NCBI GenBank assembly: GCA_964473815.1
Contig: CAYYQK010000001.1
Coordinates: forward strand, 93,523 to 157,522
Length of the DNA: 64,000 nucleotides
From: an uncultured Candidatus Saccharibacteria bacterium
Lineage (GTDB): Bacteria; Patescibacteriota; Doudnabacteria; UBA920
Reading direction: 5' to 3'
This document shows, piece by piece, positions 11,030 to 63,099 of this stretch. Within the stretch, counting starts at the first letter, position 1. Each line of letters opens with the position of its first letter. Under the pieces are notes generated by a model. The model ran no database searches and had not been told where the DNA came from. It saw nothing but the letters and a program-made list of their open reading frames with translations. The translations under genes were made by a program, and so were the position numbers.

Positions 11030-11073
11030 AAACGGGTACAGGAGCAAACGCTCTTGTACCCGTTTATTTTTTT
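11030..11073. terminator. Bidirectional intrinsic terminator between convergent genes
   Basis: 16-bp stem aaacgggtacaggagc / gctcttgtacccgttt with one G-U pair, followed by a TTTTTTT run. Confidence 0.6.
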
Positions 11074-12889: not shown

Positions 12890-12940
12890 TTTTTGTTTCT
12901 TAGAAAGTCTTTTCTTAATTATATATGATATAATCGGTTC

Positions 12941-13492
12941 ATGGAAAGTTATCCACAGAAAAATGAAATTGCTGTTTTTGCGGGTGGATGTTTTTGGTGT
13001 ACCGAAGCAATCTTTCAAAAATTGCGTGGTGTTGCCAGTGTGGTGCCAGGGTATGCTGGTGGGACCGTTGAAACCGCTAATTACGAGCAAGTATCCTCTG
13101 GTCGAACCGGGCATGCGGAGAGTATTCGGTTTGAATTTGATCCACAAAAAATTTCCTACCGCGATTTACTCGAAGTCTTTTTTGCTACTCATGATCCGAC
13201 TACTTTAAATCGGCAGGGAAATGATATTGGGCCACAATACCGATCGACAATTTTTTATGCCAATGATCAACAAAAGGGCGAGGCGGAAAAAATTATTAAA
13301 GAACTCACGGATGAGCGGGCTTTTACTGATCCGGTCGTGACAACCTTAGAGCCATTAAATGAATTTTATGAGGCTGAGGACTATCACAAGAATTATTATG
13401 AAAGAAACCAAGGGCAACCGTATTGTCAGGTTGTAATTAATCCGAAGATAAAAAAGTTTAAAGAAAAGTTTGCATCATTAATACAAGAATAA
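12941..13492 (+). CDS. msrA: Peptide methionine-S-sulfoxide reductase MsrA
   Basis: Catalytic GCFWC motif ([15 protein letters not shown]) and conserved YHQ/NYY regions. Confidence 0.85.
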
Positions 13493-24019: not shown

Positions 24020-25819
24020 ATGTCGAAAACTCTTTATTTAAATTTAGAAGATGATGTAGCCAAAGTGGCCGCTAAACTCCAGCGCGAACGCGCTGAAGAT
24101 ATAGTTTTGGTTTTTCCTAAAGGGAGCTATCTGTTTTCGGATCGTATTAATATGCGACTGCTCAAGAAGCAGCTCGACATGCTTGGGAAAAATATTTCCA
24201 TTTTAACGATGGATGAGCGCGGTAAGGCTTACGCTGAGGAAGCAGGTTTTGTGATTAAGAGCATGCCCCGCTCACTACGCTCCAGCTCTTTGTCCGACAT
24301 TCGCCCGCGCCGCACAGAATCTCGTCTCACAGAATCCCGCAGCGCAGAACCACGCAACGTGGCACCCCGCCGCACAGAAACTCAACCAACAAAACCTCAG
24401 ATAACATCACCAAAGAAAACTTTGGCAACTTTAGCTGCAGCCGCAGCTGCAATCCCTGTTGCAAAGAAACTGAAGAAGAGACCAGTCGCATCAGCTGCAA
24501 CTGCCCAAACAACAGCTGCCGCATCAAATGCAATGCGCATTAATACAAATGCCAATCCAACCCCGCATAGCGGCAGAACGGTTTCTGCAAAAAGAGCAGA
24601 TGAACTTTTCGAACCTGTTCAAAAGCAAGACAATGTCTTTATGCCCCCAAATTCGCGCAATGCAAATTTACCGCGCCGTCGTCGTTCTTACCGTGCATGG
24701 GTAGTTGGATTTATTGCTCTAGCCTTAGTAATAATTTTAGTGCTTGTTCTGGTCGTGCTTCCAAGTGCTAACATCACAGTTTATGCGAAATCAGAAACTA
24801 TCGCTCGCGACATGGACATTGTTGCTAATATCCAAACGCAAACTCCGCAGTCACAAACTCTTACCATCCCAGCAGTAGCAGTAAATGAACAACGAGACCA
24901 ATCCGACTCTTTCACGGTTAATGGTAAAAAAGAAATGGGCAGCAAAGCCGAAGGTCGCGTGGCGATTTATAATTTATCTGGCCAACCAATCACACTAAAA
25001 GCATCAACCACCACACTTACGGTTGGTACAAAATCTTACAGTTTCAAATCTGATCAGACTGGAGTCCATGCCTTAACCAGCGCAGCGAACGACAACAATG
25101 CTTCTGTTGCAGACATTATTGCTAGCGATGGGGGAGAGTCATTCAACTTGCCTGCTGGGACGCGCATGGAAATTACCAACCAGGCCTTTGGTAGTCAGCC
25201 ACAAAAATTATATGCAAAGACTGTAACCCAAGTGGTGGGCGGTTCATCCCGATTTATCTCAGTGATCACAAAAGAAGATACTGACAATGCCCAAAAACAG
25301 CTTATTCAAAAAATGGTCGACAATATTAACGCCGGCCTTTCCGACCGTAACGTAAAATTGGTTGATGGCGCATACACTATTAATGTGCAATCTTTCACAA
25401 CTGATAAACCTGAAAATACTGAAACCACCACTTTCAACGCCGAACTGAAAGTCACTATAACTGGTCTCGCCTTTGATGAAACAGGGTTAAAAAATTTGGT
25501 GCGTACTCGATTGCTCTCCTCTCTTGATGGCAATAAAACTTTACAACCTCTTGATCAAGATACAATCATTTATAAAATTTCAAATCTGGATGTGCAAAAT
25601 GGCATCATGCAACTCTCCATTCACTACGAAACCACCGACAAGCCAACTATTGACCCAGTTGATATTAAAAATAAGATCACTGGTAAGTCCAAACAGGAAG
25701 CTTCTGATTTAATTCTTGCCAACAGTGATATTGATCATGTGGAAATTACAGTACAACCTGCTTGGCAGTCGGGGATACCACGCATCTCTGGGAAAATCCA
25801 CATTGAAGTAAAAGAATAA
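24020..25819 (+). CDS. Hypothetical single-pass membrane protein
   Basis: N-terminal globular domain, then a low-complexity R/S/T/E repeat tract (RPRRTESRLTESRSAEPRNVAPRRTETQP), TM helix WVVGFIALALVIILVLVLVVL and a large C-terminal domain. Confidence 0.5.
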   Translation: MSKTLYLNLEDDVAKVAAKLQRERAEDIVLVFPKGSYLFSDRINMRLLKKQLDMLGKNISILTMDERGKAYAEEAGFVIKSMPRSLRSSSLSDIRPRRTESRLTESRSAEPRNVAPRRTETQPTKPQITSPKKTLATLAAAAAAIPVAKKLKKRPVASAATAQTTAAASNAMRINTNANPTPHSGRTVSAKRADELFEPVQKQDNVFMPPNSRNANLPRRRRSYRAWVVGFIALALVIILVLVLVVLPSANITVYAKSETIARDMDIVANIQTQTPQSQTLTIPAVAVNEQRDQSDSFTVNGKKEMGSKAEGRVAIYNLSGQPITLKASTTTLTVGTKSYSFKSDQTGVHALTSAANDNNASVADIIASDGGESFNLPAGTRMEITNQAFGSQPQKLYAKTVTQVVGGSSRFISVITKEDTDNAQKQLIQKMVDNINAGLSDRNVKLVDGAYTINVQSFTTDKPENTETTTFNAELKVTITGLAFDETGLKNLVRTRLLSSLDGNKTLQPLDQDTIIYKISNLDVQNGIMQLSIHYETTDKPTIDPVDIKNKITGKSKQEASDLILANSDIDHVEITVQPAWQSGIPRISGKIHIEVKE

Positions 25820-31360: not shown

Positions 31361-34300
31361 ATGGCCACTCGACCACCTACGCCGGCACAAGCTCGGTATA
31401 GAATGCGCTTTACCGTGCATCAAATTCCTGACCCCGCTCCAAAGCAATTTTTTCACCTTAACCGCATAATGCTTGGGAAGGCGCTAGCTTTTGTGGCGGT
31501 TTTTTCTTTATTACTAAATAGTATCGGAGCTGCGCAAGCTAAGACAGATAAAGTATCAGTCTGTCATAAGACCGGCAATGGATTTCAATTACTGGAAGAT
31601 ATAGCTGATAACGCTTTACCTGGTCACTTAGGCCACGGGGATATTTACCCAGTACCGGCGAATGGCTGTCCTGAGACTCTGCCCGAAAGTACCGCAACCG
31701 TTACAATTGTAAAATATATTGACGGAGTCCCTGCTACAGCTGAACTGGCCCACAGCGCAGAATTTCCTATGACCGCAACCTGGAATGCAACGAATATTGG
31801 TCCTGGCAGTGGTAATTATACCTTAGGTCCGACTGGTTATAACAATAACAACCCCTATCAAGCCACCACATCAGCAATGACAACTGGGGCTAGTTATACA
31901 ACTTCTGAATTAACAAATACCGCTGTAGTCGGTACTAATTGCGAAGGGAATAATGCCTTTGCTTTAAGTGGATATTCATTGGGCAATACTTTGTCGGATG
32001 CAGAATCAGCTTTGGTATCAGTTGATGCTCCTGCTCTAACTAATTTAAGTTCAGATAAATACATTATTGTTTGGAATAAGGATTGTAGTAAAGTTGTACC
32101 GCCGGTGAATGTTGATTTTGAAATTAATAAAGTTTGGGAAGACGCCCAAGGTGCTCCAATTGATGCTCCTAATAACAAGGATGACATTAGTATTACGGTA
32201 AGCCACGATAGCGATTCATTAAATTGTAAATATACGGACGGAAATTTCGGTTGCGATGGAGATGGGGTTTTGAGCGGGCTTTCAACCGATACATTCAATA
32301 TCACTGAGACAGGTGTGCCAGCAGGTTGGTCTGCAGATCCTCAGACTGTGGGGGAAAACATCGCCGCGAATTGTCCGGCAGACGTTGAGGATGGAGATAC
32401 ATGTACTATAACAATCGTCAATAAGCTCAGTTCAATCTCACCATGTAATACAGAGCTGATAATTAATGGCGGCTTTGAAGCGCCGTTGGTAACTGATTCT
32501 AATAATTGGCAATTATTCCCATCAGGTACTGAAAATCTGGGGTGGTCTGCCGATGCCGCCGGTACAACTACTAACGGTAATTTAGAAATACAAGCCGGAG
32601 TCTTTGGCTGGAATGCGCATAGCGGCAACCAATTTGCAGAAGTTGATTCAGATAAATCAATGAGTTATTCACAGGACTTAATCACAGTTCCCGGTGGAAT
32701 TTATACGGTTACTTTGTGGTCATCTCCTCGTCCTGGTCAATCAGCCAGTGAAAATAAAACTGAAGTGAAAGCCGGGGCAACAGTGTTAGATATAATTTCG
32801 GAAGATGGTACTAGCCTAAGCCAAACCAATTGGACAGAGCATACGTATACATTTACGGCAGCAACGCCGATCACTCATTTTAGCCTGACGGATGTAGGGC
32901 CAAGCAATGGTTTGGGTGGCTTATTTGACGATGTAAGCGTTAAGCAGCAATGTGTTTCTCAAGTGACGTTATGTAAAAAGGATAACCACGACAATCCACT
33001 TTCTGGGTGGGAGCTGTATTTGAAAGGTCCAAAAATTGAGACAGTGAATGTGCCTTCAACCAACGGATTGGATGTTTCAACAAGCACATTGCCTGCCGGC
33101 GACTATGCTTTAGAAGCTAGTGGTACCTATGTTTATCGCCCAAACGATCCGAGTGCTTCAATTTCCGATGCGGCGTTTTCTAAAAGACTGCCATCAGATT
33201 CCGTTTATTCCATTGGAACGTCTCAGCCGTGGGTTCGCGTCAATGATTTCCCAAGTCCTTATCAAGGTTACTTAGGAATTCAAGTGGATGATACTAACAA
33301 TTTTGATTGGGGGTCTACCTTTAGCGCCACTCATAATTACACAGGAAATAAAACTTTAGCAGTTGACGGACAAATTAAATTCCGCATATTGGACGATAAC
33401 TATTCTGATAATAGTGGTGATTTGAGCGTTGATATATATCCGATTATCAAAGGCACTACAGGTGATAATGGTTGTGTGACTTTGCCGAATATACAATTTG
33501 ATACCTATACCGTAGGGGAAGTGATGCAGGATGGCTGGAGTAATGTCAGTGGTAATGGAGTGACTGCAGTTATTAATGAAAGCACGGAAAATTATACTGT
33601 AGTTAATCGTTGTGATAGCAATTGTAAATCCACAGTGACGGTTTGTAAGAAGGATAGTAGCGGAAATCCTCTTGCAGGGTGGGATGTGTTCTTGAAGGGC
33701 TCATTGCTTGAAACTGTTTCTGTAAATTCTAATAATGTTGCTGGCGCAGATTCAACGAATAGTCTTGTTGCCGGTCAAAAGTATGCTGTGGATGTCTCGG
33801 GAACCTGGCAAAACCGGGGTTTTGAGACCGTAGATGCCAGTTATACATCCCCCGATGGTTGGACCACCGTACTGGCAGCTCCGCAAGGTGGGTTTCCTGA
33901 CAATTTGCTGGAAATGCAAATTGACCACAACTTTATCGATTGGGGAGCGTATGCCAATGATCATAAATATCACACTGTGATAACTGGAACCGGAGCACCA
34001 GTAAACTTCGGAGTGTTTGATATTAATGACGATACTTATACTCCAGACCCTAGCTGGTACGGAGACAATATCGGTAATCTGACAATAAAAATTTATCCTA
34101 TTTACGAAGGCGTAACTACAGCCCAAAATGGCTGTGCGACTTTGGAAAATGTACCTTTTGGTAATTATGCTTTGGGGGAAGTGATGCAAGATGGTTGGGT
34201 AAACGAAAGCGGTGATGGTACATCGGTTCATGTCGTTAAACCAATCGAGCCGGGCCCAAACACCGAAATAAACCCATTCACTCTTGTAAATTCCTGTCAG

Positions 34301-36037
34301 TCTGAATCTTGCAGGACAGTTCCTCAGCTGCATCTAGTTAAAGTGGTCTGTTCTAGTTTTGGCGACATCAAAGGAAATGCAAATGCTGATACATACGACG
34401 CCACTGGCGGCAAATATAATTTGTTTAGCAACTATCCAAACTTTGACGGCGTGGTTGAACCTATTAGCCCCGCTGAAATTCCGGAAAATTGTAATACTCA
34501 GTCAGGCTGGAACTTTAAGCTTTCTACCGATATCGAACAAAATGATAATTCCCAAACAGTTACTACTGGAAACTCAGGAGAATATGTTACCCCGATTTCC
34601 GGCAATGACTCTGGATTAAATCCTGTATTGCAAACAGCTATTGCAAACGGTTCGTTATACGTAAGTGAAGTCACTCAAGACGGGTATGATTTTGGTGCTT
34701 TGCGCTGTTATAACGACGCTCTCAATGGCGATAATAAAGAATTAATTAATTTGGGCGAAAGCCAACCGGCAAATATTTATTGTATTGCATACAATGTCAG
34801 CCAGGTAAAACCTTGTGTGGTGGAGCCGATCACAAATGTATTAAGCAGTACTGATACACAATTCTTGGGACTTAAAGAAGGTGGGTCAGCACCGGCTGAT
34901 CTTTCCGATCCAACTGATTATCCATCTGGCACAGCTGGACCAGCTCAAACAGCAGGTCCAACAGGGTATCCTGGGGCATGGGATGGCTCAGCGAACGATT
35001 CTAGCGTCTCTGGTGCAGTTTATATCAGCAATGACTCTACTCAACCAACCAACAGCGGCGGACTCGGCTACGACGGTTCGGTGGATTCGTGGCGATTATT
35101 TAGTCAGACGTTCACAATCCCGGCGGGGGCAGTGAGTATTTCCACTCCTTCATTGCATTTTGCTGCTGACAACGAAGTCACTGTATTCTTAGATGATGCC
35201 CAAATTGGTACCAGTAATAGTTTTAGTTCTATCACAACAGTTGGACCGATCACTCTAACCGCCGGAACTCACACTTTGAAATTTGCAGTTAAGAATTATG
35301 CATTTGATCAAACTAATAATCCGACAGGAGTAATTTATAAGTTGGATAATATCTCCTACCAATGTAGTAATGGTGGTGGAGATTCAGACAAACACACCAT
35401 TTCCGGAATTGTTTACAATGACAACAACACCCAAAATGGCACATATAACGACGGTGAAGCAGGATTGCCGGGTTGGACTGTGTATATTGATGCAAACGAC
35501 AATGGAACTTTGGATTCTGGAGAAGAAACTACTACTTCCGGTGCAGACGGGCATTATAGCTTTACAAACTTACCATCAGATTGTTATGTAATACGAGAGG
35601 TCGTGAATGACGGTTGGAATCAAACCGGTCCGGTTGGTCCACCTGCCAATAAATATCAATTTGGTATTGGTTCGGGAAATTGTGATGAGTCCCTGACTAT
35701 TGTAGGAAAAGTTTTAGGGTCGGTTATTCATACGGCAAATGCCTTAACGATCAACCCTGACCCAACCGATGCTAATTTTGGGAACATAATCACCACTAAT
35801 AATACTGGTGGAAGTAGTGGAAGTAGCAGAACAAACATCCCACAGGGACGAGTATTGGGAGATACCACAAATATTCCTTACATTGACCCTGGTACCAATG
35901 GCCAAGTTTTGGGTGCATCCACAACCTTGCCTGTAACTGGGAACACTATGAATATACTTTGGGCTTTATTGGCATTAACTGCTGTTATTGTCTTACCAGC
36001 AAAAATCGTTCTCAAAATGAAGAAAGAAAATTCTTAA
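31361..36037 (+). CDS. Giant (about 1558 aa) LPXTG-anchored surface protein / adhesin with Cna-B/SdrD-B-like repeat domains
   Basis: Signal peptide MLGKALAFVAVFSLLLNSIGAAQA (an alternative start at ATG 31469 is possible). Repeated modules include TxCKKDxxxNPLxGW and GCxTLxNxxFxxYxxGEVMQDGW. An SdrD-B-like segment YNDNNTQNGTYNDGEAGLPGWTVYIDANDNGTLDSGEETTTSGADGHYSF. C-terminal sorting signal LPVTG, hydrophobic stretch, then KMKKENS. Confidence 0.75.
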   Translation: MATRPPTPAQARYRMRFTVHQIPDPAPKQFFHLNRIMLGKALAFVAVFSLLLNSIGAAQAKTDKVSVCHKTGNGFQLLEDIADNALPGHLGHGDIYPVPANGCPETLPESTATVTIVKYIDGVPATAELAHSAEFPMTATWNATNIGPGSGNYTLGPTGYNNNNPYQATTSAMTTGASYTTSELTNTAVVGTNCEGNNAFALSGYSLGNTLSDAESALVSVDAPALTNLSSDKYIIVWNKDCSKVVPPVNVDFEINKVWEDAQGAPIDAPNNKDDISITVSHDSDSLNCKYTDGNFGCDGDGVLSGLSTDTFNITETGVPAGWSADPQTVGENIAANCPADVEDGDTCTITIVNKLSSISPCNTELIINGGFEAPLVTDSNNWQLFPSGTENLGWSADAAGTTTNGNLEIQAGVFGWNAHSGNQFAEVDSDKSMSYSQDLITVPGGIYTVTLWSSPRPGQSASENKTEVKAGATVLDIISEDGTSLSQTNWTEHTYTFTAATPITHFSLTDVGPSNGLGGLFDDVSVKQQCVSQVTLCKKDNHDNPLSGWELYLKGPKIETVNVPSTNGLDVSTSTLPAGDYALEASGTYVYRPNDPSASISDAAFSKRLPSDSVYSIGTSQPWVRVNDFPSPYQGYLGIQVDDTNNFDWGSTFSATHNYTGNKTLAVDGQIKFRILDDNYSDNSGDLSVDIYPIIKGTTGDNGCVTLPNIQFDTYTVGEVMQDGWSNVSGNGVTAVINESTENYTVVNRCDSNCKSTVTVCKKDSSGNPLAGWDVFLKGSLLETVSVNSNNVAGADSTNSLVAGQKYAVDVSGTWQNRGFETVDASYTSPDGWTTVLAAPQGGFPDNLLEMQIDHNFIDWGAYANDHKYHTVITGTGAPVNFGVFDINDDTYTPDPSWYGDNIGNLTIKIYPIYEGVTTAQNGCATLENVPFGNYALGEVMQDGWVNESGDGTSVHVVKPIEPGPNTEINPFTLVNSCQSESCRTVPQLHLVKVVCSSFGDIKGNANADTYDATGGKYNLFSNYPNFDGVVEPISPAEIPENCNTQSGWNFKLSTDIEQNDNSQTVTTGNSGEYVTPISGNDSGLNPVLQTAIANGSLYVSEVTQDGYDFGALRCYNDALNGDNKELINLGESQPANIYCIAYNVSQVKPCVVEPITNVLSSTDTQFLGLKEGGSAPADLSDPTDYPSGTAGPAQTAGPTGYPGAWDGSANDSSVSGAVYISNDSTQPTNSGGLGYDGSVDSWRLFSQTFTIPAGAVSISTPSLHFAADNEVTVFLDDAQIGTSNSFSSITTVGPITLTAGTHTLKFAVKNYAFDQTNNPTGVIYKLDNISYQCSNGGGDSDKHTISGIVYNDNNTQNGTYNDGEAGLPGWTVYIDANDNGTLDSGEETTTSGADGHYSFTNLPSDCYVIREVVNDGWNQTGPVGPPANKYQFGIGSGNCDESLTIVGKVLGSVIHTANALTINPDPTDANFGNIITTNNTGGSSGSSRTNIPQGRVLGDTTNIPYIDPGTNGQVLGASTTLPVTGNTMNILWALLALTAVIVLPAKIVLKMKKENS

Positions 36038-37202: not shown

Positions 37203-37258
37203 TTGAAATTGATAAAACCCTGGTCGAAAGGCTGGGGTTTTTGTTATATAATTTTGCT

Positions 37259-38257
37259 ATGGATAAAATGGAAGAACATGTACGCGCTGTTATGTTCGAC
37301 AGCAATAACAATTTAGTACTGATTCATCGTGTAAAACCAGATCGAGAGTACTGGGTTTTTCCAGGTGGAACAGTTGAAGCTGGGGAGAGTCATGAAGCTG
37401 CCCTGAAACGTGAGATTTTGGAGGAGGTGGGTGTAGAAATTGAAGTGGGGGAATTGTTTACCAGAATTGTTTTTGAAGGTTATGAGAGACCCCAGTTAAA
37501 TTTTTACTATTTGGCCAAGATTACTGGTGGGCAAATCGGTAGTGGTATGGGGCCGGAATTTCAGCGTGATCCTAAAATTCATGGAACTTATGGGGTTGAG
37601 GCTTTGTCTTTAAATGATGTGGTACTGCGGGATGTGGCCTCGCCTGAAGTGAAAAAGTTGGTGTGCGAAAAATTCCAAAAGACAGGCTGGGATCAGCATT
37701 ACAAAGATACCAAAGATAAACCACCTTCTGAATTATTAGTACAGGCTTTGGGGTACGTTATCAACAAGAATAATGCAATTGATATCGGTGCTGGTGCGAC
37801 TCTTCGGGATGCAAAGTATTTGTTAGATCAAGGATTTGAAAATGTAACTGTTGTGGATCAGGAAGAATCTGTTGCTGCGGCTGCAGAAAAAATCGGATCG
37901 AAAAAATTGCATTGTTATATCTCAAAATTCGCTGAGTTTGAATTCCCAGAAAATGAATATGATTTAGCTAATGCTAATTATTCTTTGCCGTTTAATCCGC
38001 CAGAAGATTTTGATAAGGTTTTCAGTAGAATTAAAAACTCGTTGGTTAAAGGTGGAATTTTTTGCGGGCAGTTTTTTGGGGTGAATGATGATTGGAATAA
38101 AAGTCCGCACCTAAGTTTTCATACAAAAGAGCAGGTTTTAGGTTTGCTTCAGGGGATGGAAGTTTTACATTTGGAAGAAAAAGAATTTGATGGAAAATTG
38201 GCCAGCGGAGCCCCAAAGCATCGTCATGTTTTTGATGTAATCGCTAGGAAAATTTAG
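37259..38257 (+). CDS. NUDIX hydrolase fused to a class I SAM-dependent methyltransferase domain
   Basis: Nudix box GGTVEAGESHEAALKREILEEVGV in the N-terminal half. C-terminal half has motif I IDIGAGAT and a DLANANYSL post-I region. Start placed at the first ATG (MDKMEEH); the ORF track uses upstream TTG 37241. Confidence 0.55.
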   Translation: MDKMEEHVRAVMFDSNNNLVLIHRVKPDREYWVFPGGTVEAGESHEAALKREILEEVGVEIEVGELFTRIVFEGYERPQLNFYYLAKITGGQIGSGMGPEFQRDPKIHGTYGVEALSLNDVVLRDVASPEVKKLVCEKFQKTGWDQHYKDTKDKPPSELLVQALGYVINKNNAIDIGAGATLRDAKYLLDQGFENVTVVDQEESVAAAAEKIGSKKLHCYISKFAEFEFPENEYDLANANYSLPFNPPEDFDKVFSRIKNSLVKGGIFCGQFFGVNDDWNKSPHLSFHTKEQVLGLLQGMEVLHLEEKEFDGKLASGAPKHRHVFDVIARKI

Positions 38258-55352: not shown

Positions 55353-56207
55353 ATGAACAAGAAAATTGCCGCTGCAACCTTAATTTTAATCGGCCTGATC
55401 GTTGGCTTATTTTTAGGTTGGCCCGAGAAAATTCAAAAATGGTTAGGTAGCACGGATTTCGGCTCGCGGGTAATTTCGTATACATCAGAAGAGAATTTTC
55501 CCGCACCGCTGCGCGGCTTGCTCGACTCGAGTGCAAAAAGTTATCTAACCAAACAAGGTGTCATTGATGAAACCAATAAACAACGAGCTAACAATGGCAA
55601 CACACCGTTACACGAAAATGCTCGCTTAGACAAAGCCGCTGAAGCAAAAGTTGATGATATGTTTGCCCAACAATATTTTGAACATAAGTCGCCGGATGGA
55701 AAAATGCCAGCTGACTTGGCTCACGCCCAAGGTTATGATTTTGTTGTTGTTGGAGAAAATCTTGCTTTAGGAAATTTTGAGAATGATAAAGCTCTTGTCG
55801 AAGCCTGGATGAACAGCCCTGGTCATCGCGCGAATATTTTACATTCCTCCTATCAGGAAATTGGAGTAGCGGTAAAGAAAGGTCAATTCGAAGGGAAGAC
55901 AGTTTGGTTGGCTGTACAGGAATTTGGTACGCCACTTTCAAATTGTCCTGGCGCTGATTTAAGTTTGAAGGCGCAGATAGATACTAACCGTGCTAATATT
56001 GCTGCGCTTCAAAGTTCATTGTCACAAGAAAAGGCTGATCTCAATTCAAACCGCTACTCTAACCGTGAAGAATACAATGCGGCAGTTGCGGTGTATAACA
56101 ACAATGTTAATAAAGTTAACGCGTTAATAAACGAAACGCAAAAGTTAGTGACACAATACAACAGCAGCGTCAATCAATTTAATTCTTGTTTGGAGACTAA
56201 TTCTTAG
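55353..56207 (+). CDS. CAP (SCP/PR1, YkwD-like) domain secreted protein with a C-terminal coiled coil
   Basis: N-terminal TM/signal. CAP motifs HENARLDKAAEAKVDDM...GENLA....AWMNSPGHRANIL. Confidence 0.65.
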   Translation: MNKKIAAATLILIGLIVGLFLGWPEKIQKWLGSTDFGSRVISYTSEENFPAPLRGLLDSSAKSYLTKQGVIDETNKQRANNGNTPLHENARLDKAAEAKVDDMFAQQYFEHKSPDGKMPADLAHAQGYDFVVVGENLALGNFENDKALVEAWMNSPGHRANILHSSYQEIGVAVKKGQFEGKTVWLAVQEFGTPLSNCPGADLSLKAQIDTNRANIAALQSSLSQEKADLNSNRYSNREEYNAAVAVYNNNVNKVNALINETQKLVTQYNSSVNQFNSCLETNS

Positions 56208-58600: not shown

Positions 58601-59905
58601 ATGTTGGCACATTTAAAAGAAACTAAAACCAACATCAAACTCATTCTTATAGCCGCGGCATTACTGATGCTTGCCGTTGGTGTTTTTGTGTTTGCCTGGA
58701 AATATCAGATAAATATGGCAAATGCTGCGACCGCCAATCGTAGCGAGTTAAATAGCAAAATCCAGCAGTTGCAGACGAAAATTAATTCGTATCAACAATC
58801 GATTATAGAAACACAAAAACTTAGCGCCACTTTGCAGAATGAAATAACCATTTACGATAGTCAGATTGCCTCTCTCGAATTGCAAATTGAAGCAACGAAA
58901 ACTCAAACTGAAGACATGACTTTGCAAGTTAATGAATTGCAAACTCAAATCGACCGCCGTAAAGCCGAAATCGAAGATAACAAAGTAGTGCTTGGTGAAC
59001 TCGTTCGGCAAATTGCTCTTCTCGACAACGACTCATTCATTCAAATCGGCTTGGGCACAGACAACTTCTCTGCTTTTTTAGACCAAGTGCAATACAACAG
59101 AAGTATTTCACAGCAAGTCTATAACCTTGTGGCAAAAATAAAAGACATCAAGCAGAAACTGGAAACTCAGCAAAACGATTTAAAAAAATCTTTAGATAAG
59201 CTGAATGAACTTTCTCAGCAACTTCAAATATCCCAAGAAACTCTAAACGAACAAAAAACATCTAAGCAGCAATTGCTAGCGCAAACGAAAGGTAACGAAA
59301 AGAATTACCAGAAACTATTAGCAGCAACAACCAGCCAGCAGGGCAAAGTTGAAAAGGAATTGTATGACTTAGATGTTGCAGCTGGTCGAAGGGTTGGCGC
59401 GCCAAATATTTCGGCGAAAAAAGGCGTCTTGGCTTGGCCGATGGAAGGCGTAGTCACGCAAGGTTATGGCAACACTGGTTTTACGGACCTTGGCTATTCG
59501 TTCCACAACGGTATCGATATTGCTGCACCAGCAGGACAGCCAATTTACGCGGCTGCAGATGGAATAGTGGACACCTGCAATTCGAGTAATTATGCCTATG
59601 GAAATTGGTGTTCAATTCTGCACACTGTTGATTCAAATAGCGGCCCGGCGCAAATCGTTACTTTGTACGGTCATATGCGTTCTTATGTTGTTTCGGCTGG
59701 GCAGGTTGTGAAGCAGGGCGATTTAATTGGCTTTGAAGGAAATACTGGTAACACCACACGATTGCTATACGGCGCGGCCAGTGGTTTTCATGTCCACTTC
59801 ACAATCTTTGCCCGTACCGGTTATACTGTAACTAAAGGTTCGTATGGGGATTACTTAATTCCATCCGGTGTTACATTGAATCCATTTAGCTTCTTAGGTT
59901 CATAA
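58601..59905 (+). CDS. M23-family peptidoglycan metalloendopeptidase with an N-terminal coiled coil (EnvC-like)
   Basis: TM anchor and a long coiled coil. M23 motifs HNGIDIAAPAGQPIYAAADG and TLYGHM. Confidence 0.8.
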   Translation: MLAHLKETKTNIKLILIAAALLMLAVGVFVFAWKYQINMANAATANRSELNSKIQQLQTKINSYQQSIIETQKLSATLQNEITIYDSQIASLELQIEATKTQTEDMTLQVNELQTQIDRRKAEIEDNKVVLGELVRQIALLDNDSFIQIGLGTDNFSAFLDQVQYNRSISQQVYNLVAKIKDIKQKLETQQNDLKKSLDKLNELSQQLQISQETLNEQKTSKQQLLAQTKGNEKNYQKLLAATTSQQGKVEKELYDLDVAAGRRVGAPNISAKKGVLAWPMEGVVTQGYGNTGFTDLGYSFHNGIDIAAPAGQPIYAAADGIVDTCNSSNYAYGNWCSILHTVDSNSGPAQIVTLYGHMRSYVVSAGQVVKQGDLIGFEGNTGNTTRLLYGAASGFHVHFTIFARTGYTVTKGSYGDYLIPSGVTLNPFSFLGS

Positions 59906-59928: not shown

Positions 59929-60945
59929 TTGAAAAGAGTTGCTTTAATTTTGATGACTGCAATACTGCCAGTAGAAATGCTACTGGGGTACTTGGCATTC
60001 GCACAACCGGTGCAAGCGCAATTGAATCCTCCCACCACAACGCAAACCGCTGCGCCGGAATATAAAAATGTTGATTCAAGTATTGAAAAATATTTGTGTA
60101 CCCCGAACGATAGTAATTTAGGCGGTGCGTTATTTAACTGTATTAGTAAGGTATATCGGTTTGGCGTGGCCTTTGGCGCCATTGCCGTAGTGTTCTTTAT
60201 AGTTCTTGCCGGATACATGTATATTACCGGCGGCGAGGCAGCTAAGGGCAAAGCTAAAACCATGATCCAGAATTCGATTATTGGAATTGCCTTGATGCTT
60301 GGAAGTTACTTGTTGTTGAGTTTTATTAATCCTGATTTAGTTAAAATTAAGCCCATTCAAGCGCCAATTTTTAGCGCTAGTGATTTGCCTAAGTGTGCGG
60401 ATGTGGGGCTGGGAGTTAATTGTGTTCTTCCTGATGGACAAGTGAACGTTCCTAATCCTGCTCCAGGCGGAGCAAGCGGTTGTGCTAACAGAGAAAGTGG
60501 AAGTTGTACAAAACAGGTAATTTCGGCCTGTCCAGCATTTGCCTCGCAAATGGAAAATTCGTTGAGAGCTTGTAACCAAGAAAGTATGGGTGGTCGCGCC
60601 GATATTGCAAGTACTGTGGACCGCTGTGACGAAACAACAACTGGAAAGGTGGTCGCATTCAGTTGGGGGTTATGGCAATTGAATGTTGCAGCTGGTAGTT
60701 ATGGCGCAGAGTTTCCTGAGTGTAAGGGGGTTTTGTCTCAAGCAGGTGGACCATGGAGTACTTTATGTATTACCGGAGGAACGTGTGGTCGTAAATGTAC
60801 TTTTGGAAAAGGTGCTGATGCGTTTTATGCTTGTACCAAAGCCCTTGCTGACCCAGTTCGTAACACAAAACAAGCCTGCAATTTATATGCAAAAAGTGGC
60901 TGGGGACCATGGCCTTATACGAAAAAAGTTTGTAACTTACCATAA
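59929..60945 (+). CDS. Secreted Cys-rich protein: VirB2/TrbC-like two-helix core fused to a lytic-transglycosylase-like C-terminal domain
   Basis: Signal peptide. Two-helix hairpin FGVAFGAIAVVFFIVLAGYMYITGG-EAAKGKAKTM-IQNSIIGIALMLGSYLLLSFI. C-terminal NQESMGG....FSWGLWQLN resembles the GH23 SLT motif (ES...GLMQ). 16 Cys residues. Confidence 0.5.
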   Translation: MKRVALILMTAILPVEMLLGYLAFAQPVQAQLNPPTTTQTAAPEYKNVDSSIEKYLCTPNDSNLGGALFNCISKVYRFGVAFGAIAVVFFIVLAGYMYITGGEAAKGKAKTMIQNSIIGIALMLGSYLLLSFINPDLVKIKPIQAPIFSASDLPKCADVGLGVNCVLPDGQVNVPNPAPGGASGCANRESGSCTKQVISACPAFASQMENSLRACNQESMGGRADIASTVDRCDETTTGKVVAFSWGLWQLNVAAGSYGAEFPECKGVLSQAGGPWSTLCITGGTCGRKCTFGKGADAFYACTKALADPVRNTKQACNLYAKSGWGPWPYTKKVCNLP

Positions 60946-60947
60946 AA

Positions 60948-61397
60948 ATGGATAAAAAATATATTTACATTATTGCAGGTATTCTCGCCTTATTGATCAT
61001 TCTAGGTATGGTTTTCATTTTGCTTAAACCTAAGAATAACAATTCAAATTCCATTTCAATAACGGGACTTAATAATCAACCGGTCAAAACTAAAGACTTT
61101 ATTTCAGCGTCCAAAACTTACGATAAAGAGACTGTAATTTTTTCTGATTCAGATTTAAATATTGAGTATGACGCTGCTTCTCAGTTTTTCCAAATCACCT
61201 TTACAAATGTTGACCCGCAAATACTTTTAGTTAATAGAGATAAGGCCGAAAAGCTCTTGCTGGATCAGTTAGGGGTATCGCAAAAGGATGCTTGTAATTT
61301 AAATGTTCGCGAAGTGTTGCCTCCTATTGATCCCACTGCCTCACAGGCAAAGTTTTACGTAATGAGTTTTTGTCCTGGCGGGGATAAATTTCCTTAA
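60948..61397 (+). CDS. Hypothetical membrane-anchored protein
   Basis: TM helix YIIAGILALLIILGMVFILL. Contains a CPGG motif. Confidence 0.4.
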   Translation: MDKKYIYIIAGILALLIILGMVFILLKPKNNNSNSISITGLNNQPVKTKDFISASKTYDKETVIFSDSDLNIEYDAASQFFQITFTNVDPQILLVNRDKAEKLLLDQLGVSQKDACNLNVREVLPPIDPTASQAKFYVMSFCPGGDKFP

Positions 61398-61405
61398 TAA
61401 TACTT

Positions 61406-62128
61406 ATGGATGAATTAGAGGATCAACAGAAAGAGGTTGTTATTAATAATAGTCGGTGGCCAGTCGCCATTGCGATTTTTTTTGGCACTTGGATAATCGG
61501 TATGTGTATTATTGTTGCCGGTTTAATGATTTCCAAAGAATTAGCGAAAAATAATGCACCGCAAAATATATCGAATATTCCTCCTCAAAAAACTGATATA
61601 GCAGTACCGGCCGGTATTCCGGTCTTGGGGAATAATAATGCCCCTGTAACTATTATTGAATTCGCAGACTTCCAATGTCCTTTTTGCGAAGAATGGCAAA
61701 AAAGTGTTTTCCCTGATTTAAAAAAGAATTACATTGATACAGGAAAGGCTCGCTTTGTATTTATGAATTACGCTTTCTTGGGTGAAGAGTCAGTTAAAGC
61801 GGCGGAGGCGGCAAGGTGCGCACAAGACCAAAATAAATTCTGGGAGTATCATGATAAATTGTATGAATTACAGAAAGGGGAGAATCAAGGAACCTTTTCT
61901 GATGCGAACCTAAAGAATTTTGCCAATCTGACTGGTTTGGAGTCCGGGAGTTTTAACAAATGTTTTGATTCAAGAACTTATCAGAAAGAAATTGAAGCAA
62001 ATGTTACCCAAGCGTCTCAGTATGGAGTGCAATCTACGCCAACTGTGTTTATTAATGGTTTAAAGTACGAAGGAGTTTATCCATACCAAACATATGCGGA
62101 TACCATTGAAATGTTGTTAAAAAAATAA
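61406..62128 (+). CDS. Membrane-anchored DsbA-family thiol:disulfide oxidoreductase
   Basis: TM anchor. Thioredoxin-fold CxxC active site FADFQCPFCEEW. DsbA-like helical insertion and a second Cys pair ARCAQD. Confidence 0.75.
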   Translation: MDELEDQQKEVVINNSRWPVAIAIFFGTWIIGMCIIVAGLMISKELAKNNAPQNISNIPPQKTDIAVPAGIPVLGNNNAPVTIIEFADFQCPFCEEWQKSVFPDLKKNYIDTGKARFVFMNYAFLGEESVKAAEAARCAQDQNKFWEYHDKLYELQKGENQGTFSDANLKNFANLTGLESGSFNKCFDSRTYQKEIEANVTQASQYGVQSTPTVFINGLKYEGVYPYQTYADTIEMLLKK

Positions 62129-63099
62129 TGATGAAACTAAAACAAAAATTAATTCGTGGCATTTTATTATTTGCATTCGCATTGGTTATTGCAAACCCTA
62201 CTTTTGTTTTTGCGCAGTCAAATAATAATTCGACGGGTGGAATCGGTTTAACCAATTATAGCGGAGTCGATAGTAGCATCAGTAAATATTTATGCACTCC
62301 ATCCGACCCATCTACCCCAGACAATAGTCAAGACCTACCTCGGTGTATAAATAAAGTCTACCGATTTGGCGTGGCCTTTGGCGCCATTGCGGTAGTGTTT
62401 TTTATAGTCTTGGCGGGTTACATGTATATTACCGGCGGTGAGGCAGCAAAAGGCAAAGCTAAAACCATGATTCAGAATGCTGTGATTGGCATTGGGTTGA
62501 TGCTGGGCAGTTATGTCATTTTGAGCTTTATCAATCCTACATTAGTTATTTATAAACCCATCCAGCCTCCAATTTTTATTGCATCTGATCTGGCTGATTG
62601 TGCGCAACTTGGTTTAGGTGAAGAATGTGTTTTGCCGGATGGAAGCACGGGCTTGTCAAATGGTAGTGGAGGAGGTACAAAATATGCGCCTTGCCCTGGC
62701 GGTCAGTTAGTTTCGGTGACCGGCGTTTCTACAGATGGAGGTGTTGGTCAAATTTGCAAAGCGCTCCTAGAAAAAATAGTCCAGTTAAAAGCGAATACAA
62801 AAGATATCCCTTGGTTAGCAACTTCTGCTGTTGATGGTACACACATTAGTCAGTGTCATAAATCAGGAAATGCCTACTCGGGTACTTGTGTAGACCTTGC
62901 TTTAAATGGTGGTCGCTCACCATCTTACACAAAAGAATCAGGATCTACCAATCCGAAGTGGGGGGACTTATGCAAAGCGATTTATAGTTTAGGTGGAGTA
63001 GCTATCGCAAATGAAGCATCTAAAAATTCTTCCTGTTCGCCTTACAAGGTTTATGACACAACAACAGGACCAAACTTACATATCTATTTATCTCAGTAA
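62128..63099 (+). CDS. Paralog of 59929: secreted VirB2/TrbC-like core with a divergent Cys-rich C-terminal domain
   Basis: Signal peptide. Core KVYRFGVAFGAIAVVFFIVLAGYMYITGGEAAKGKAKTMIQN is almost identical to the paralog, with about 90% nucleotide identity over roughly 130 nt. C-terminal domain differs (CHKSGNAYSGTC...). Confidence 0.5.
   Translation: MMKLKQKLIRGILLFAFALVIANPTFVFAQSNNNSTGGIGLTNYSGVDSSISKYLCTPSDPSTPDNSQDLPRCINKVYRFGVAFGAIAVVFFIVLAGYMYITGGEAAKGKAKTMIQNAVIGIGLMLGSYVILSFINPTLVIYKPIQPPIFIASDLADCAQLGLGEECVLPDGSTGLSNGSGGGTKYAPCPGGQLVSVTGVSTDGGVGQICKALLEKIVQLKANTKDIPWLATSAVDGTHISQCHKSGNAYSGTCVDLALNGGRSPSYTKESGSTNPKWGDLCKAIYSLGGVAIANEASKNSSCSPYKVYDTTTGPNLHIYLSQ

What the first reader, a model, noticed from the sequence alone, without database searches (positions are those of the whole stretch)
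59929..63099. Duplicated Cys-rich secreted proteins with a VirB2/TrbC-like two-helix core flanking a membrane-bound DsbA
What the sequence shows. Two paralogs (338 and 323 aa) share a signal peptide and a KYLCTP motif. They also share a near-identical hydrophobic hairpin: FGVAFGAIAVVFFIVLAGYMYITGG, then the loop EAAKGKAKTM, then a second helix. The two cores have about 90% nucleotide identity over roughly 130 nt, which suggests recent duplication or gene conversion. The C-terminal domains are divergent, each about 200 aa and Cys-rich (about 16 Cys each). Between the paralogs lie a small membrane protein and a membrane-anchored thioredoxin-fold oxidoreductase with a CPFC active site. The C-terminal domain of the first paralog carries ES...FSWGLWQLN, resembling the catalytic motif of GH23 lytic transglycosylases.

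Inference. The two-helix core has the topology of type IV secretion pilins (VirB2/TrbC), and T4SS-associated cell-wall hydrolases are known (VirB1 and PrgK-type). The arrangement suggests a secreted or surface-displayed effector or pilin family with swappable Cys-rich heads, matured by a dedicated DsbA. No VirB4 or VirD4 genes are in the window, so the T4SS link is untested.
Basis: partly seen in the sequence, partly recalled or inferred. Interest (0 to 1): 0.6.

Follow-up and report, generated by a model that had tools for sequence, protein, structure and literature searches.

The report
Pilin-anchored cell-wall hydrolases with swappable heads
Two neighbouring genes in an ultrasmall (Patescibacteria) bacterium encode cell-wall-cutting enzymes held in the membrane by a module borrowed from secretion-system pilins; the same anchor carries at least five different enzyme heads in related genomes, an arrangement I found no description of in the literature I could search.

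Summary
A (59929-60945) and B (62128-63099) share a 165-aa N-terminal module: 65% identity, 42 consecutive identical residues, 88.6% nt identity. Their C-terminal heads are unrelated. A has 16 Cys; B has 10, not 16.

The module belongs to the Patescibacteria T4SS_pilin/VirB2-like family at family level (26 of 27 relatives hit PF18895). A and B themselves score below Pfam's cut-off.

Head A is a divergent lysozyme-like SLT_3 domain. Its relatives pass PF18896, and E218 and the GLxQxN motif are invariant. Head B is a domain with no Pfam family. Its AF2 model (pLDDT 83) matches only LAS zinc peptidases (VanY/LdcB, Hedgehog, MepA, M15A), and H244, D256, E296 and H318 are conserved.

Related genomes put SLT, M23+M15, M15_4 and other heads on the same anchor. 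The cluster lies in a conserved core-genome slot after gltX and a coiled-coil M23 peptidase. No T4SS genes lie within 10 kb in any fetched locus.

The DsbA and a small membrane protein accompany the Cys-rich A-type head in all four Saccharibacteria-type genomes that have one. They are absent from the eight that lack it. In distant lineages the same fusion sits inside arrays of short pilins.

Verdict: membrane-tethered wall hydrolases on a pilin-family anchor, a new variant of a known kind. A T4SS role remains unproven.

The parts
58601..59905 (+). Upstream gene of the cluster: N-terminal TM segment, about 250 aa of coiled coil, and a C-terminal M23 metallopeptidase with intact HxxxD (H302) and HxH (H397) motifs.
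   Evidence: Pfam Peptidase_M23 8e-22. NCBIfam gives weak hits to ShyC, MepM, DipM and EnvC. Motifs located. Syntenic in front of the fusions in all Saccharibacteria-type loci whose upstream side is held.
59929..60945 (+). Paralog A (338 aa): pilin-family anchor plus a Cys-rich lysozyme-like (SLT_3-type) head.
59929..60018 (+). A: predicted signal peptide (residues 1-30, ending ...PVQA|QL).
   Evidence: Read from the sequence. The cleavage site is inferred, not computed.
60157..60327 (+). A: TM hairpin. Helix 1 is residues 77-100, the basic cytoplasmic loop GGEAAKGKAKT is 101-111, and helix 2 is 112-133.
   Evidence: PF18895 match over A79-125, E 0.002-0.012, 16-19 bits, below the gathering cut-off of 26.6. 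The single-sequence AF2 model gives two helices with pLDDT 79-88.
60148..60273 (+). Conversion tract, copy in A (residues 74-115). It is identical in protein to B76-117, with 88.6% nt identity over residues 75-115.
60328..60480 (+). A: conserved post-hairpin segment (INPDLVKIKPIQAPIF, Cys pair C156/C165) and the Gly/Pro linker VLPDGQV..., which is the junction where heads change.
   Evidence: Alignment A3. The linker is shared with SLT-headed relatives.
60481..60942 (+). A head (residues 185-338; 12 Cys, 8 of them conserved). Candidate catalytic E218 lies in CNQES (60571-60585), followed by GLWQLN (60667-60684) and NTKQACNLY (60862-60888).
   Evidence: E, S, G, Q and N are invariant in 21 diverse heads. 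12 of 21 heads hit PF18896 weakly. The head profile hits PF18896-positive proteins at 1e-20 to 1e-34.
60948..61397 (+). Small single-TM protein (149 aa, two conserved Cys). It is the conserved partner of A-type heads; its function is unknown.
   Evidence: It follows the A-type fusion in the window (= L001), L011, L014, L015, L019 and L021. No Pfam or PDB match.
61406..62128 (+). Membrane-anchored DsbA-like thiol:disulfide oxidoreductase. CPFC lies at 61676-61687, and a TP (cis-Pro) loop is present.
   Evidence: Pfam Thioredoxin_4 1.2e-41 and DSBA 5.3e-15. NCBIfam hits. Co-location with A-type heads.
62128..63099 (+). Paralog B (323 aa): pilin-family anchor plus a LAS-type zinc-peptidase-like head. 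Identical to database protein P0035.
62362..62532 (+). B: TM hairpin. Helix 1 is residues 79-102, the loop is 103-113, and helix 2 is 114-135.
   Evidence: PF18895 E 7e-4 (20.1 bits) and TrbC E 0.004 (17.7 bits), both below cut-off.
62353..62478 (+). Conversion tract, copy in B (residues 76-117).
62692..63096 (+). B head (residues 189-323; 6 conserved Cys). Candidate metal and catalytic residues are H244, D256, E296 and H318.
   Evidence: AF2 with the alignment gives pLDDT 83.3 and pTM 0.80. All top Foldseek PDB hits are LAS enzymes and the top viral hits are M15/M15A peptidases. H, D, E and H are nearly invariant in 139 representatives. No Pfam family exists for the head.

Best explanation
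A and B are paralogous, membrane-tethered peptidoglycan hydrolases of a Patescibacteria lineage (MAGs labelled Candidatus Saccharibacteria).

Build of each protein:
(i) A conserved N-terminal module of the T4SS_pilin/VirB2-like family. It comprises a Sec signal peptide, a short ectodomain with a Cys pair (KYLCTP...C), two TM helices joined by a short Lys-rich cytoplasmic loop, a conserved INP...IQPPIF segment with a second Cys pair, and a Gly/Pro linker.
(ii) An exchangeable extracytoplasmic enzyme head.

The two heads:
- Head A is a Cys-rich, lysozyme-like (SLT_3-type) glycan-strand cleaver with E218 as the likely catalytic acid.
- Head B is a LAS-fold (VanY/Hedgehog/M15-like) zinc peptidase with H244, D256 and H318 as likely ligands and E296 as the likely base.

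With the upstream coiled-coil M23 endopeptidase, the cluster encodes one glycan-cutting and two peptide-cutting activities. The embedded DsbA most likely oxidises the many extracytoplasmic cysteines. It arrived as part of a three-gene cassette (A-type fusion, small partner protein, DsbA). The small partner most likely regulates or restrains head A.

Shown: the paralogy, the family membership of the anchor, the head folds and homologies, head shuffling on a constant anchor, the conversion tract, the synteny, and the co-location of the DsbA and the small partner.

Inferred: the topology, enzyme activity, disulfide dependence, and physiological role.

My split for the role:
- About 0.4: local wall opening coupled to whatever machinery recognises the pilin module (a VirB1-like function built into pilin paralogs).
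- About 0.4: housekeeping remodelling or cell separation of the cell's own wall.
- About 0.15: attack on the host bacterium's wall.
For: - Paralogy: E 2e-65.
- Anchor: 26 of 27 N-modules hit PF18895 and 9 hit TrbC. A finds the PF18895-positive P0081 at E 1e-5 database-wide. My anchor HMM also detects short stand-alone pilins.
- Five or more head classes sit on one anchor. Of 143 B-head representatives, 129 carry the anchor, and 112 of 139 hit PF18895.
- Head A: invariant E-S and G-L-x-Q-x-N. Its relatives pass the PF18896 and PF18895 gathering scores.
- Head B: a confident model, a uniform LAS hit list, and conserved H/D/E/H.
- Synteny CAP-WecG-GltX-M23-fusion(s) holds in about 12 genomes.
- The DsbA and the small protein follow the A-type head in 4 of 4 Saccharibacteria-type genomes and in 0 of 8 without that head. 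The small partner is also conserved in distant L019 and L021.
- In L019 and L021 the fusion lies inside arrays of short PF18895 pilins.
- The S. epibionticum T4SS cluster encodes a separate lysozyme, an M15B peptidase and short pilins, the same parts that are fused here (PMC10633639).
- The hairpin is much more conserved (78% mean column identity) than the heads (28-32%).
Against: - A and B themselves fall below the Pfam gathering scores for PF18895 and PF04956.
- The PDB sequence-profile search found no pilin for the anchor and no lysozyme for head A.
- The hhalign link between head A and SLT heads vanished once the shared linker was removed.
- Head A was never modelled with an alignment, and the single-sequence model failed.
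- Foldseek scores for head B are marginal (E 1e-2 to 2e-3, TM 0.45-0.54), and I could not inspect the metal-site geometry.
- No T4SS gene lies within 10 kb of any locus.
- The DsbA is absent near the distant A-type fusions in L019 and L021, so the link is lineage-specific. The 4 versus 8 split may reflect a single ancestral event.
- No enzymatic or expression data exist.
Confidence: 0.75

Rival explanations
1. Pure housekeeping autolysins. The hairpin is only a membrane anchor that happens to descend from a pilin. The operon (M23, lysozyme-like, LAS peptidase) remodels or splits the cell's own wall during growth and division, perhaps under FtsEX control, with no link to any secretion system.
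For: - The cluster sits at a fixed core-genome position after gltX and a coiled-coil M23 peptidase of EnvC/PcsB-like build in about 12 genomes.
- ftsX and ftsE lie about 9 kb downstream.
- No T4SS or mobile-element genes lie nearby.
- The genes are tightly packed and co-directional.
Against: - The hairpin is far more conserved than a simple anchor needs (42 identical residues; 78% column identity), more so than the catalytic heads.
- In other lineages the same fusion is embedded in arrays of short pilins.
- Head shuffling and intragenomic conversion are more typical of interaction or variation modules.
Confidence: 0.35
2. Enzyme-tipped or enzyme-decorated T4SS pilus, or host-directed weapon. 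The pilin module is extracted from the membrane and built into (or onto the tip of) the Patescibacteria T4SS pilus. The heads are then presented to, and cut, the wall of the host bacterium. The small downstream protein acts as an immunity or inhibitor protein that protects the producer.
For: - The anchor belongs to the pilin family that is essential in the S. epibionticum T4SS (PMC10633639, PMC12102498).
- The fusions occur inside pilin arrays.
- Cognate pairing of head type with small-protein type resembles effector-immunity pairs.
- The heads are diverse and shuffled.
- Patescibacteria are epibionts on walled hosts (PMC10633639).
Against: - A head of 135-170 aa on every subunit is hard to fit into a VirB2-type helical filament. 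This rests on established knowledge of F- and T-pilus structures, not on a test here.
- No T4SS genes are nearby.
- The core-genome synteny with gltX and M23 argues for a cell-autonomous role.
- No pilus has yet been seen for Patescibacteria T4SSs (PMC12857230 speaks only of their 'potential').
Confidence: 0.15
3. Chance or annotation artefact. The similarity of the core to pilins is only hydrophobic composition bias, and the heads are non-enzymatic Cys-rich domains.
For: - A and B are below the Pfam cut-offs.
- TM segments give spurious weak hits to families such as Choline_transpo and Acyl_transf_3.
- No PDB sequence hits.
Against: - 26 of 27 family members hit the same Pfam family, and several pass its cut-off at 37-44 bits.
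- Non-hydrophobic positions are invariant (G95, Y98, K110, N134, P135).
- Catalytic-type residues are invariant in both heads.
- Two independent structure libraries give uniform LAS fold hits.
Confidence: 0.03

Closest known systems
VirB2-like pilins of Patescibacteria (Pfam PF18895 T4SS_pilin; the pilin arrays of Quinonero-Coronel et al. 2025, PMC12102498, and Wang et al. 2023, PMC10633639)
   Same: - Signal peptide plus two hydrophobic helices joined by a short basic loop.
- Sequence homology at family level.
[quoted passage not shown]
- Same phylum.
   Different: - Described pilins are about 95-160 aa stand-alone proteins. These are 320-560 aa, with extra Cys-pair segments and a C-terminal wall-hydrolase head.
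- They are not next to virB4. They sit in a gltX-M23 housekeeping neighbourhood.
- The papers I could search do not mention enzyme fusions.
VirB1 / PrgK / TraG(pIP501) / TcpG-type T4SS-associated peptidoglycan hydrolases
   Same: - Lysozyme/SLT-type and peptidase-type wall hydrolases serving an envelope-spanning machine.
- Multidomain, and membrane-anchored in Gram-positive systems.
- The S. epibionticum T4SS cluster has a lysozyme (SEML1_0006) and an M15B peptidase (SEML1_0007).
   Different: - Those enzymes are not fused to a pilin module, and they are encoded inside T4SS clusters.
- Here the heads are SLT_3-like and a novel LAS-like domain rather than SLT+CHAP.
- No T4SS context is shown.
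LAS metallopeptidases (VanY/LdcB M15B, VanX, MepA M74, Hedgehog N-domain, phage M15A/M15C endolysins)
   Same: - The predicted fold of head B.
- A conserved His...Asp...His set plus a Glu.
- A peptidoglycan-related context.
   Different: - No sequence-level match to any Pfam LAS family.
- The spacing is H-x11-D and E-x21-H rather than H-x6-D and E-x2-H or H-x-H.
- Six conserved Cys.
- It occurs almost exclusively on the pilin-type anchor.
Pfam PF18896 SLT_3 (lysozyme-like domain) and GH23 lytic transglycosylases
   Same: - E-S catalytic motif, a GL(M/W/F)Q motif and a downstream A-x-x-Y-type motif, in the same order.
- Relatives of head A pass PF18896, and a few hit PF01464 weakly.
   Different: - A itself scores only 13.6 bits against a cut-off of 27.
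- It has 8-12 extra Cys and long insertions.
- The fold was not verified here.
- Whether it acts as a lytic transglycosylase or as a hydrolytic lysozyme is unknown.
FtsEX-controlled coiled-coil hydrolases (EnvC, PcsB, CwlO, RipC)
   Same: The upstream gene has the TM + long coiled coil + hydrolase-domain build. ftsEX lie on the same stretch of chromosome.
   Different: - The M23 domain here keeps its metal ligands, whereas EnvC lacks them.
- Interaction with FtsX was not tested.
- The fusions themselves have no counterpart in those systems.

Membership tests
VirB2/TrbC-type T4SS pilin (PF04956) / Patescibacteria T4SS_pilin (PF18895) | Sequence match to the family profile above the curated cut-off. 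| tested here: inconclusive
   A scores 16-19 bits and B 20.1 bits on PF18895 (cut-off 26.6). B scores 17.7 bits on PF04956 (cut-off 27.9). At family level, 26 of 27 N-modules hit PF18895 (best E 6e-12). Relatives P0081, P0087, P0088 and P0101 pass at 37-44 bits. A against P0081 gives E 1e-5 database-wide.
VirB2/TrbC-type T4SS pilin (PF04956) / Patescibacteria T4SS_pilin (PF18895) | Signal peptide followed by two hydrophobic helices joined by a short, positively charged loop. | tested here: met
   Read from the sequence: A77-100, loop GGEAAKGKAKT, A112-133; the same in B. The AF2 hairpin has pLDDT 79-88.
VirB2/TrbC-type T4SS pilin (PF04956) / Patescibacteria T4SS_pilin (PF18895) | Small stand-alone protein (about 70-160 aa precursor). 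| tested here: not met
   338 and 323 aa, with enzyme heads of 135-170 aa. Canonical S. epibionticum pilins are 127-139 aa.
VirB2/TrbC-type T4SS pilin (PF04956) / Patescibacteria T4SS_pilin (PF18895) | Encoded with T4SS machinery (VirB4, VirB6, etc.). | tested here: not met
   No T4SS Pfam hit among 20 large window ORFs. None within 10 kb in the loci with gene calls. The rest of the genome was not searchable.
VirB2/TrbC-type T4SS pilin (PF04956) / Patescibacteria T4SS_pilin (PF18895) | Polymerises into an extracellular pilus. | not testable with these tools
   Needs microscopy or biochemistry.
GH23 / SLT / SLT_3 lysozyme-like domain (head A) | Profile match above the cut-off (PF01464 or PF18896). 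| tested here: inconclusive
   A scores 13.6 bits on PF18896, E 0.09 (cut-off 27). 12 of 21 A-type heads hit PF18896 weakly. Homologues found at 1e-20 to 1e-34 pass PF18896 at 27.5-41.8 bits.
GH23 / SLT / SLT_3 lysozyme-like domain (head A) | Catalytic Glu in an E-S motif, followed by GLMQ-type and A..Y-type motifs. | tested here: met
   E218-S219, G247, Q250 and N252 are invariant, and A316 is nearly invariant, in 21 diverse heads.
GH23 / SLT / SLT_3 lysozyme-like domain (head A) | Lysozyme-like alpha-helical fold. | tested here: inconclusive
   The single-sequence AF2 model failed for the head (pLDDT about 30-50). PDB profile searches were empty. hhalign against SLT heads gave only 4.5% once the shared linker was removed.
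LAS zinc metallopeptidases (M15/M74/Hedgehog fold; head B) | Hedgehog/DD-peptidase fold. | tested here: met
   Model pLDDT 83.3, pTM 0.80. The top 50 PDB hits are all ShhN/IhhN/DhhN, LdcB, MepA or VanXY/VanY (probability up to 0.99, E from 1e-2, TM 0.45-0.54). The viral library gives M15A, M15 and Shh-like hits at E 2e-3.
LAS zinc metallopeptidases (M15/M74/Hedgehog fold; head B) | His-Asp-His zinc ligands plus a catalytic acid or base. | tested here: inconclusive
   H244, D256, E296 and H318 are invariant or nearly so across 139 representatives. Their spacing is atypical, and their positions in the model could not be inspected.
LAS zinc metallopeptidases (M15/M74/Hedgehog fold; head B) | Sequence match to a curated LAS family. 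| tested here: not met
   No Pfam family for the head in 20 + 139 members. The only hits are single weak ones to Peptidase_M15_3 (E 0.005) and HH_signal (E 0.001). hhalign against the M15_4 and VanY-like heads was negative.
DsbA-type thiol:disulfide oxidoreductase (61406-62128) | Thioredoxin/DSBA profile above the cut-off, a CxxC active site and a cis-Pro loop. | tested here: met
   Thioredoxin_4 143 bits and DSBA 56 bits. CPFC at residues 91-94, and a TP loop within STPT starting at residue 210.
DsbA-type thiol:disulfide oxidoreductase (61406-62128) | Dedicated to the neighbouring Cys-rich proteins. | tested here: inconclusive
   Adjacent to the A-type head in 4 of 4 Saccharibacteria-type genomes, and absent from 8 of 8 clusters without that head. 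L018 also pairs a DsbA with a 16-Cys fusion. There is none within 10 kb in L019 or L021. The loci are not phylogenetically independent, and the DsbA may be the genome's only one.

The most novel reading that the evidence does not exclude
The pilin-type module is not just an anchor. The Patescibacteria T4SS (or a self-assembly process) extracts these fusions from the membrane and builds them into, or onto the tip of, a pilus. The result would be an enzymatically armed filament that carries lysozyme-like and LAS-peptidase heads to drill through the host bacterium's wall. The small downstream proteins would act as cognate inhibitors that protect the producer. This would make the essential but enigmatic 'pilin arrays' of these epibionts a toolbox of structural and enzymatic pilins.
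Probability: 0.12. Interest if true: 0.9.

Novelty: new variant of a known kind. Interest (0 to 1): 0.58.

Why it matters
Patescibacteria make up a large share of bacterial diversity and live attached to other microbes. Their T4SS and its unusual VirB2-like pilin arrays are essential in the one species tested, but what they do is unknown.

This family physically joins the pilin module to wall-cutting enzymes. The enzymes are of the same two classes (lysozyme-like and M15-like) that sit as separate genes in the S. epibionticum T4SS cluster. Such a fusion points to a functional link between pilin modules and local peptidoglycan cleavage, and it gives concrete proteins on which to test that link.

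The work also does the following:
- It defines a previously unclassified LAS-like domain family of about 180 representative clusters, nearly all on this anchor.
- It identifies a conserved small partner protein of the lysozyme-like head.
- It describes a three-gene cassette that carries its own DsbA.
- It warns that counts of 'VirB2 pilins' in these genomes include enzymes.

Tried and rejected
1. Single-sequence AF2 of A. The head was unusable (pLDDT 30-50). This cost one of the two prediction jobs, so head A never got an MSA-based model.
2. hhalign of A-heads against SLT heads gave 91% probability. I rejected it because the score came from the shared VLPDGQV linker. Without the linker it fell to 4.5%.
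3. hhalign of B-heads against the M15_4, VanY-like and M23+M15 heads on the same anchor showed no relation.
4. PDB sequence-profile searches with the A-head, enlarged A-head, B-head, N-module and small-protein alignments gave nothing significant.
5. NCBIfam on the five cluster proteins added only weak hints, such as the Mbov_0395 pilin-like family at E 0.016 for B.
It was redone with a tighter alignment.
8. I looked for an equivalent locus, or Pfam-annotated fusions with Tn-seq data, in S. epibionticum. None was found.
9. The promoter/terminator scan was uninformative.
10. A holin/endolysin or SAR-endolysin reading was considered and dropped. The proteins have a cleavable-type signal peptide, a pilin-family hairpin and chromosomal core synteny, with no phage genes nearby.
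11. A mobile-element or ICE origin was considered and dropped. No integrase, relaxase or T4SS genes are present, and the flanks are conserved housekeeping genes.

Full report
OBSERVATION

The ORFs are as described:
- A: 59929-60945, 338 aa, TTG start. An in-frame ATG eight codons downstream gives the 330-aa version, P0001.
- A 149-aa single-TM protein: 60948-61397.
- A 240-aa thioredoxin-fold protein: 61406-62128.
- B: 62128-63099, 323 aa.

The genes are co-directional, with spacers of 2, 8 and -1 nt, and they follow a 434-aa gene (58601-59905) after 23 nt.

BLASTP of A against B gives 65% identity over A22-181 (E 2e-65), and nothing beyond that region. A74-115 and B76-117 are 42 identical residues. 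Nucleotide identity there is 109/123 (88.6%), against 66-68% in the flanks.

One detail in the finding is wrong. A has 16 Cys, but B has only 10. The heads are about 155-173 aa and 135-156 aa, not about 200 aa.

The 240-aa protein is a DsbA-type oxidoreductase (Thioredoxin_4 1.2e-41, DSBA 5.3e-15, CPFC active site, N-terminal TM anchor).

WHAT THE SHARED MODULE IS

On their own, A and B hit Pfam T4SS_pilin (PF18895) and TrbC/VirB2 (PF04956) only below the gathering scores: 16-20 bits against 26.6, and 17.7 against 27.9.

The family-level picture is clear, however:
- A database search with A returned 81 relatives whose N-terminal halves are 45-65% identical to A.
- 26 of 27 aligned N-modules hit PF18895 (best E 6e-12), and 9 hit TrbC (best E 6e-6).
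- A itself finds P0081 at E 1e-5 in a 5.8-billion-sequence database, and P0081 passes PF18895 at 43.7 bits.
- An HMM of the module also detects short stand-alone pilins in other loci.

The module is more elaborate than a plain pilin. It has a signal peptide, an ectodomain with a conserved Cys pair (Y.GV..SI..YLCTP...C), helix 1, the loop GGE..K.K.K, helix 2, a conserved INP.LV.IKPIQPPIF segment with a second Cys pair, and a VLPDGQ-type Gly/Pro linker.

By the positive-inside rule, the Lys-rich loop is cytoplasmic and both ends are outside. The heads are therefore extracytoplasmic. This topology is inferred, not tested.

A PDB sequence-profile search found no pilin. That is not surprising for a TM hairpin.

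THE HEADS ARE EXCHANGEABLE WALL HYDROLASES

I clustered the regions downstream of the module in the 81 relatives (Pfam labels):
- 29 heads of SLT type (most hit PF01464)
- 22 A-type heads
- 20 B-type heads, six of them with a further VanY-like SDHxxGxAxD...EPH domain
- 3 with M23 + M15 (PF01551 + PF01427)
- 2 with M15_4 (PF13539)
- several singletons

Several contigs carry two or three paralogs with different heads.

Head A. Its 21 diverse members keep E218-S219, G247, Q250 and N252 invariant, plus eight Cys. Twelve of the 21 hit PF18896 (SLT_3, 'lysozyme-like domain') weakly. A profile of the head finds proteins at E 1e-20 to 1e-34 that pass the gathering scores of both PF18896 and PF18895. 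Head A is therefore a divergent SLT_3-type lysozyme-like domain, and the T4SS_pilin + SLT_3 architecture already exists among curated Pfam members.

Some caution is needed:
- An apparent 91% hhalign match to the SLT heads was an artefact of the shared linker.
- The single-sequence structure model failed.
- The PDB profile searches were empty.

Head B. It has no Pfam or PDB sequence match. With the 20-sequence alignment, AlphaFold2 gave a confident model (pLDDT 83.3, pTM 0.80). Foldseek against the PDB returned a uniform list of LAS-fold proteins: Hedgehog N-domains, VanY-like LdcB, MepA and VanXY. Probabilities reach 0.99, but E-values (about 1e-2) and TM-scores (0.45-0.54) are marginal. The viral library returned M15A and M15 peptidases, a Shh-like protein and tape-measure wall-hydrolase domains, with a best E of 2e-3.

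An exhaustive HMM search found 182 representative clusters of this head among 1.84 billion. Of 143 of these, 129 carry my anchor HMM, and 112 of 139 hit PF18895. The head itself still matches no Pfam family. H244, D256, E296 and H318 and six Cys are invariant or nearly so. Head B is thus a previously unclassified LAS-like domain that occurs almost only on the pilin-type anchor.

The upstream gene is a TM + coiled-coil + M23 peptidase with intact HxxxD and HxH motifs.

GENOMIC CONTEXT

The window matches an ENA scaffold (L001). Its relatives are MAGs labelled Candidatus Saccharibacteria or Patescibacteria.

In about 12 genomes the order is fixed: CAP-domain protein, WecG-type transferase, GltX, coiled-coil M23, fusion 1, small TM protein, fusion 2 (sometimes fusion 3). 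Then come Aminotran_5, ArfC, L27, CTP synthase, L9 and FtsX/FtsE. No T4SS component appears in the window or within 10 kb of any locus that has gene calls.

The DsbA tracks the Cys-rich A-type head:
- It immediately follows the A-type fusion and its small partner in the window, L011, L014 and L015.
- It is missing from the eight distinct clusters whose fusion 1 is a two-Cys SLT type.
- In L011 and L014 the trio (A-type fusion, small protein, DsbA) sits between M23 and an SLT-type fusion, as if inserted as a cassette.
- L018 also pairs a DsbA with a 16-Cys fusion.

This pattern may trace back to a single ancestral event. Distant A-type fusions in L019 and L021 have no DsbA within 10 kb, and L020 has one 3 kb away.

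The small 149-aa protein is specific to A-type heads. SLT-type fusions are followed by an unrelated, Cys-free protein of about 175 aa. The 149-aa type also follows the A-type fusion in distant L019 and L021 (E 3e-17 and 2e-13). It matches nothing known.

In L019 and L021 the fusion lies within arrays of short stand-alone PF18895 pilins of 93-158 aa.

EVOLUTIONARY DYNAMICS

A is a mosaic. Residues 56-70 and 131-165 follow the fusion-1 lineage, while residues 106-125 follow the B-type lineage. Together with the 42-residue identity, this supports a conversion tract from B into A. It is not very recent, because there are 14 synonymous differences.

A's head is 75% identical to the A-type head of L011. 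A's anchor, in contrast, is closer to its in-genome paralog B (75%) and to SLT-headed fusion-1 proteins of other genomes (70-71%) than to L011's A-type anchor (63%). That discordance is what head swapping at the conserved junction would produce.

MECHANISM

Best supported: these are Sec-exported hydrolases tethered by a hairpin, with their heads on the outer face of the membrane. One cuts glycan strands (A). Two cut peptides (B and the M23 protein). The DsbA oxidises their cysteines.

The hairpin is far more conserved (78% mean column identity) than the heads (28-32%). This suggests it does more than anchor.

Published work shows that VirB2-like pilin arrays are widespread in Patescibacteria and essential in S. 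epibionticum. That species' T4SS cluster also encodes a separate lysozyme-like protein and an M15B peptidase (PMC12102498, PMC10633639, PMC12857230). The fusions here join these same parts.

Set against that, the strict core-genome synteny with gltX and M23, and the absence of nearby T4SS genes, favour a cell-autonomous role in wall remodelling. I cannot choose between these roles with the data to hand. I rate them about equally likely, with a host-directed or pilus-displayed role less likely.

COMPARISON AND NOVELTY

The parts are known: T4SS_pilin, SLT_3, the LAS fold, DsbA and M23. So are pilin arrays in this phylum. Source annotations call these proteins 'pilin' or 'SLT domain-containing protein'.

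I found no description in the searchable literature of the following:
- the pilin module as a constant anchor for a shuffled set of wall hydrolases
- the B-type LAS-like head family
- the head-specific small partner proteins
- the DsbA-containing cassette

I therefore rate this a new variant of a known kind, with interest of about 0.58.

Noticed in passing
window 552-2351(+), 7068-8744(+), 8889-11003(+), 11072-13147(-), 24020-25819(+): Five large ORFs (558-704 aa) have no Pfam hit even at E<=0.01. They lie among polysaccharide and envelope genes (Polysacc_synt flippase 2355-3791, GT4 15779-16879, Wzy_C ligase 16872-18536).
   Followed up: partly
window 31361-36037 (+): A 1558-aa protein with SpaA/SdrD-B prealbumin-like domains near its C-terminus. 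It may be a surface adhesin of the epibiont.
   Followed up: no
window 20578-22359 (+): The alanyl-tRNA synthetase is short (593 aa: catalytic core plus SAD only).
   Followed up: no
window 55353-56207 (+): A CAP/PR-1 domain protein is conserved at the left edge of the hydrolase cluster in all Saccharibacteria-type loci that include that side.
   Followed up: partly
L003 11130-11672; also L004-L008, L010, L012, L013 between fusion 1 and fusion 2: A second small single-TM protein family (about 170-182 aa, no Cys, motif EDKYLMLL...YWLV) follows SLT-headed fusions. It is unrelated to the window's 149-aa protein. Each head type seems to have its own partner.
   Followed up: partly
L011 7740-12655; L014 5901-11038: These genomes carry three anchor fusions in a row. 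The trio (A-type fusion, small protein, DsbA) sits in front of an SLT-type fusion. The window genome lacks the SLT-type copy.
   Followed up: partly
L019 11420-12658; L021 9525-10001 and 12993-14235: Arrays of short stand-alone PF18895 pilins (93-158 aa) flank a pilin-SLT_3 fusion, next to gyrA and an SBP_bac_1 gene. No VirB4 lies within 10 kb.
   Followed up: partly
L021 11563-12711: A 382-aa, extremely Cys/Gly/Ser-rich secreted protein sits inside the pilin array.
   Followed up: no
L018 7141-8783; L016 3244-4545: L018 comes from a MAG labelled Gammaproteobacteria, possibly misbinned. It has a DsbA directly upstream of an anchor protein with a 16-Cys head. L016 has an anchor fused to an M23-like head with 21 Cys.
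   Followed up: no
P0053, P0059, P0066, P0068, P0069, P0077 (B-type relatives): Some B-type fusions carry a second C-terminal domain with the VanY signature SDHxxGxAxD...(D/N)EPH. That gives two LAS-type domains in tandem on one anchor.
   Followed up: partly
window 37241-38257 (+): A single ORF fuses a NUDIX domain to a class I methyltransferase domain.
   Followed up: no
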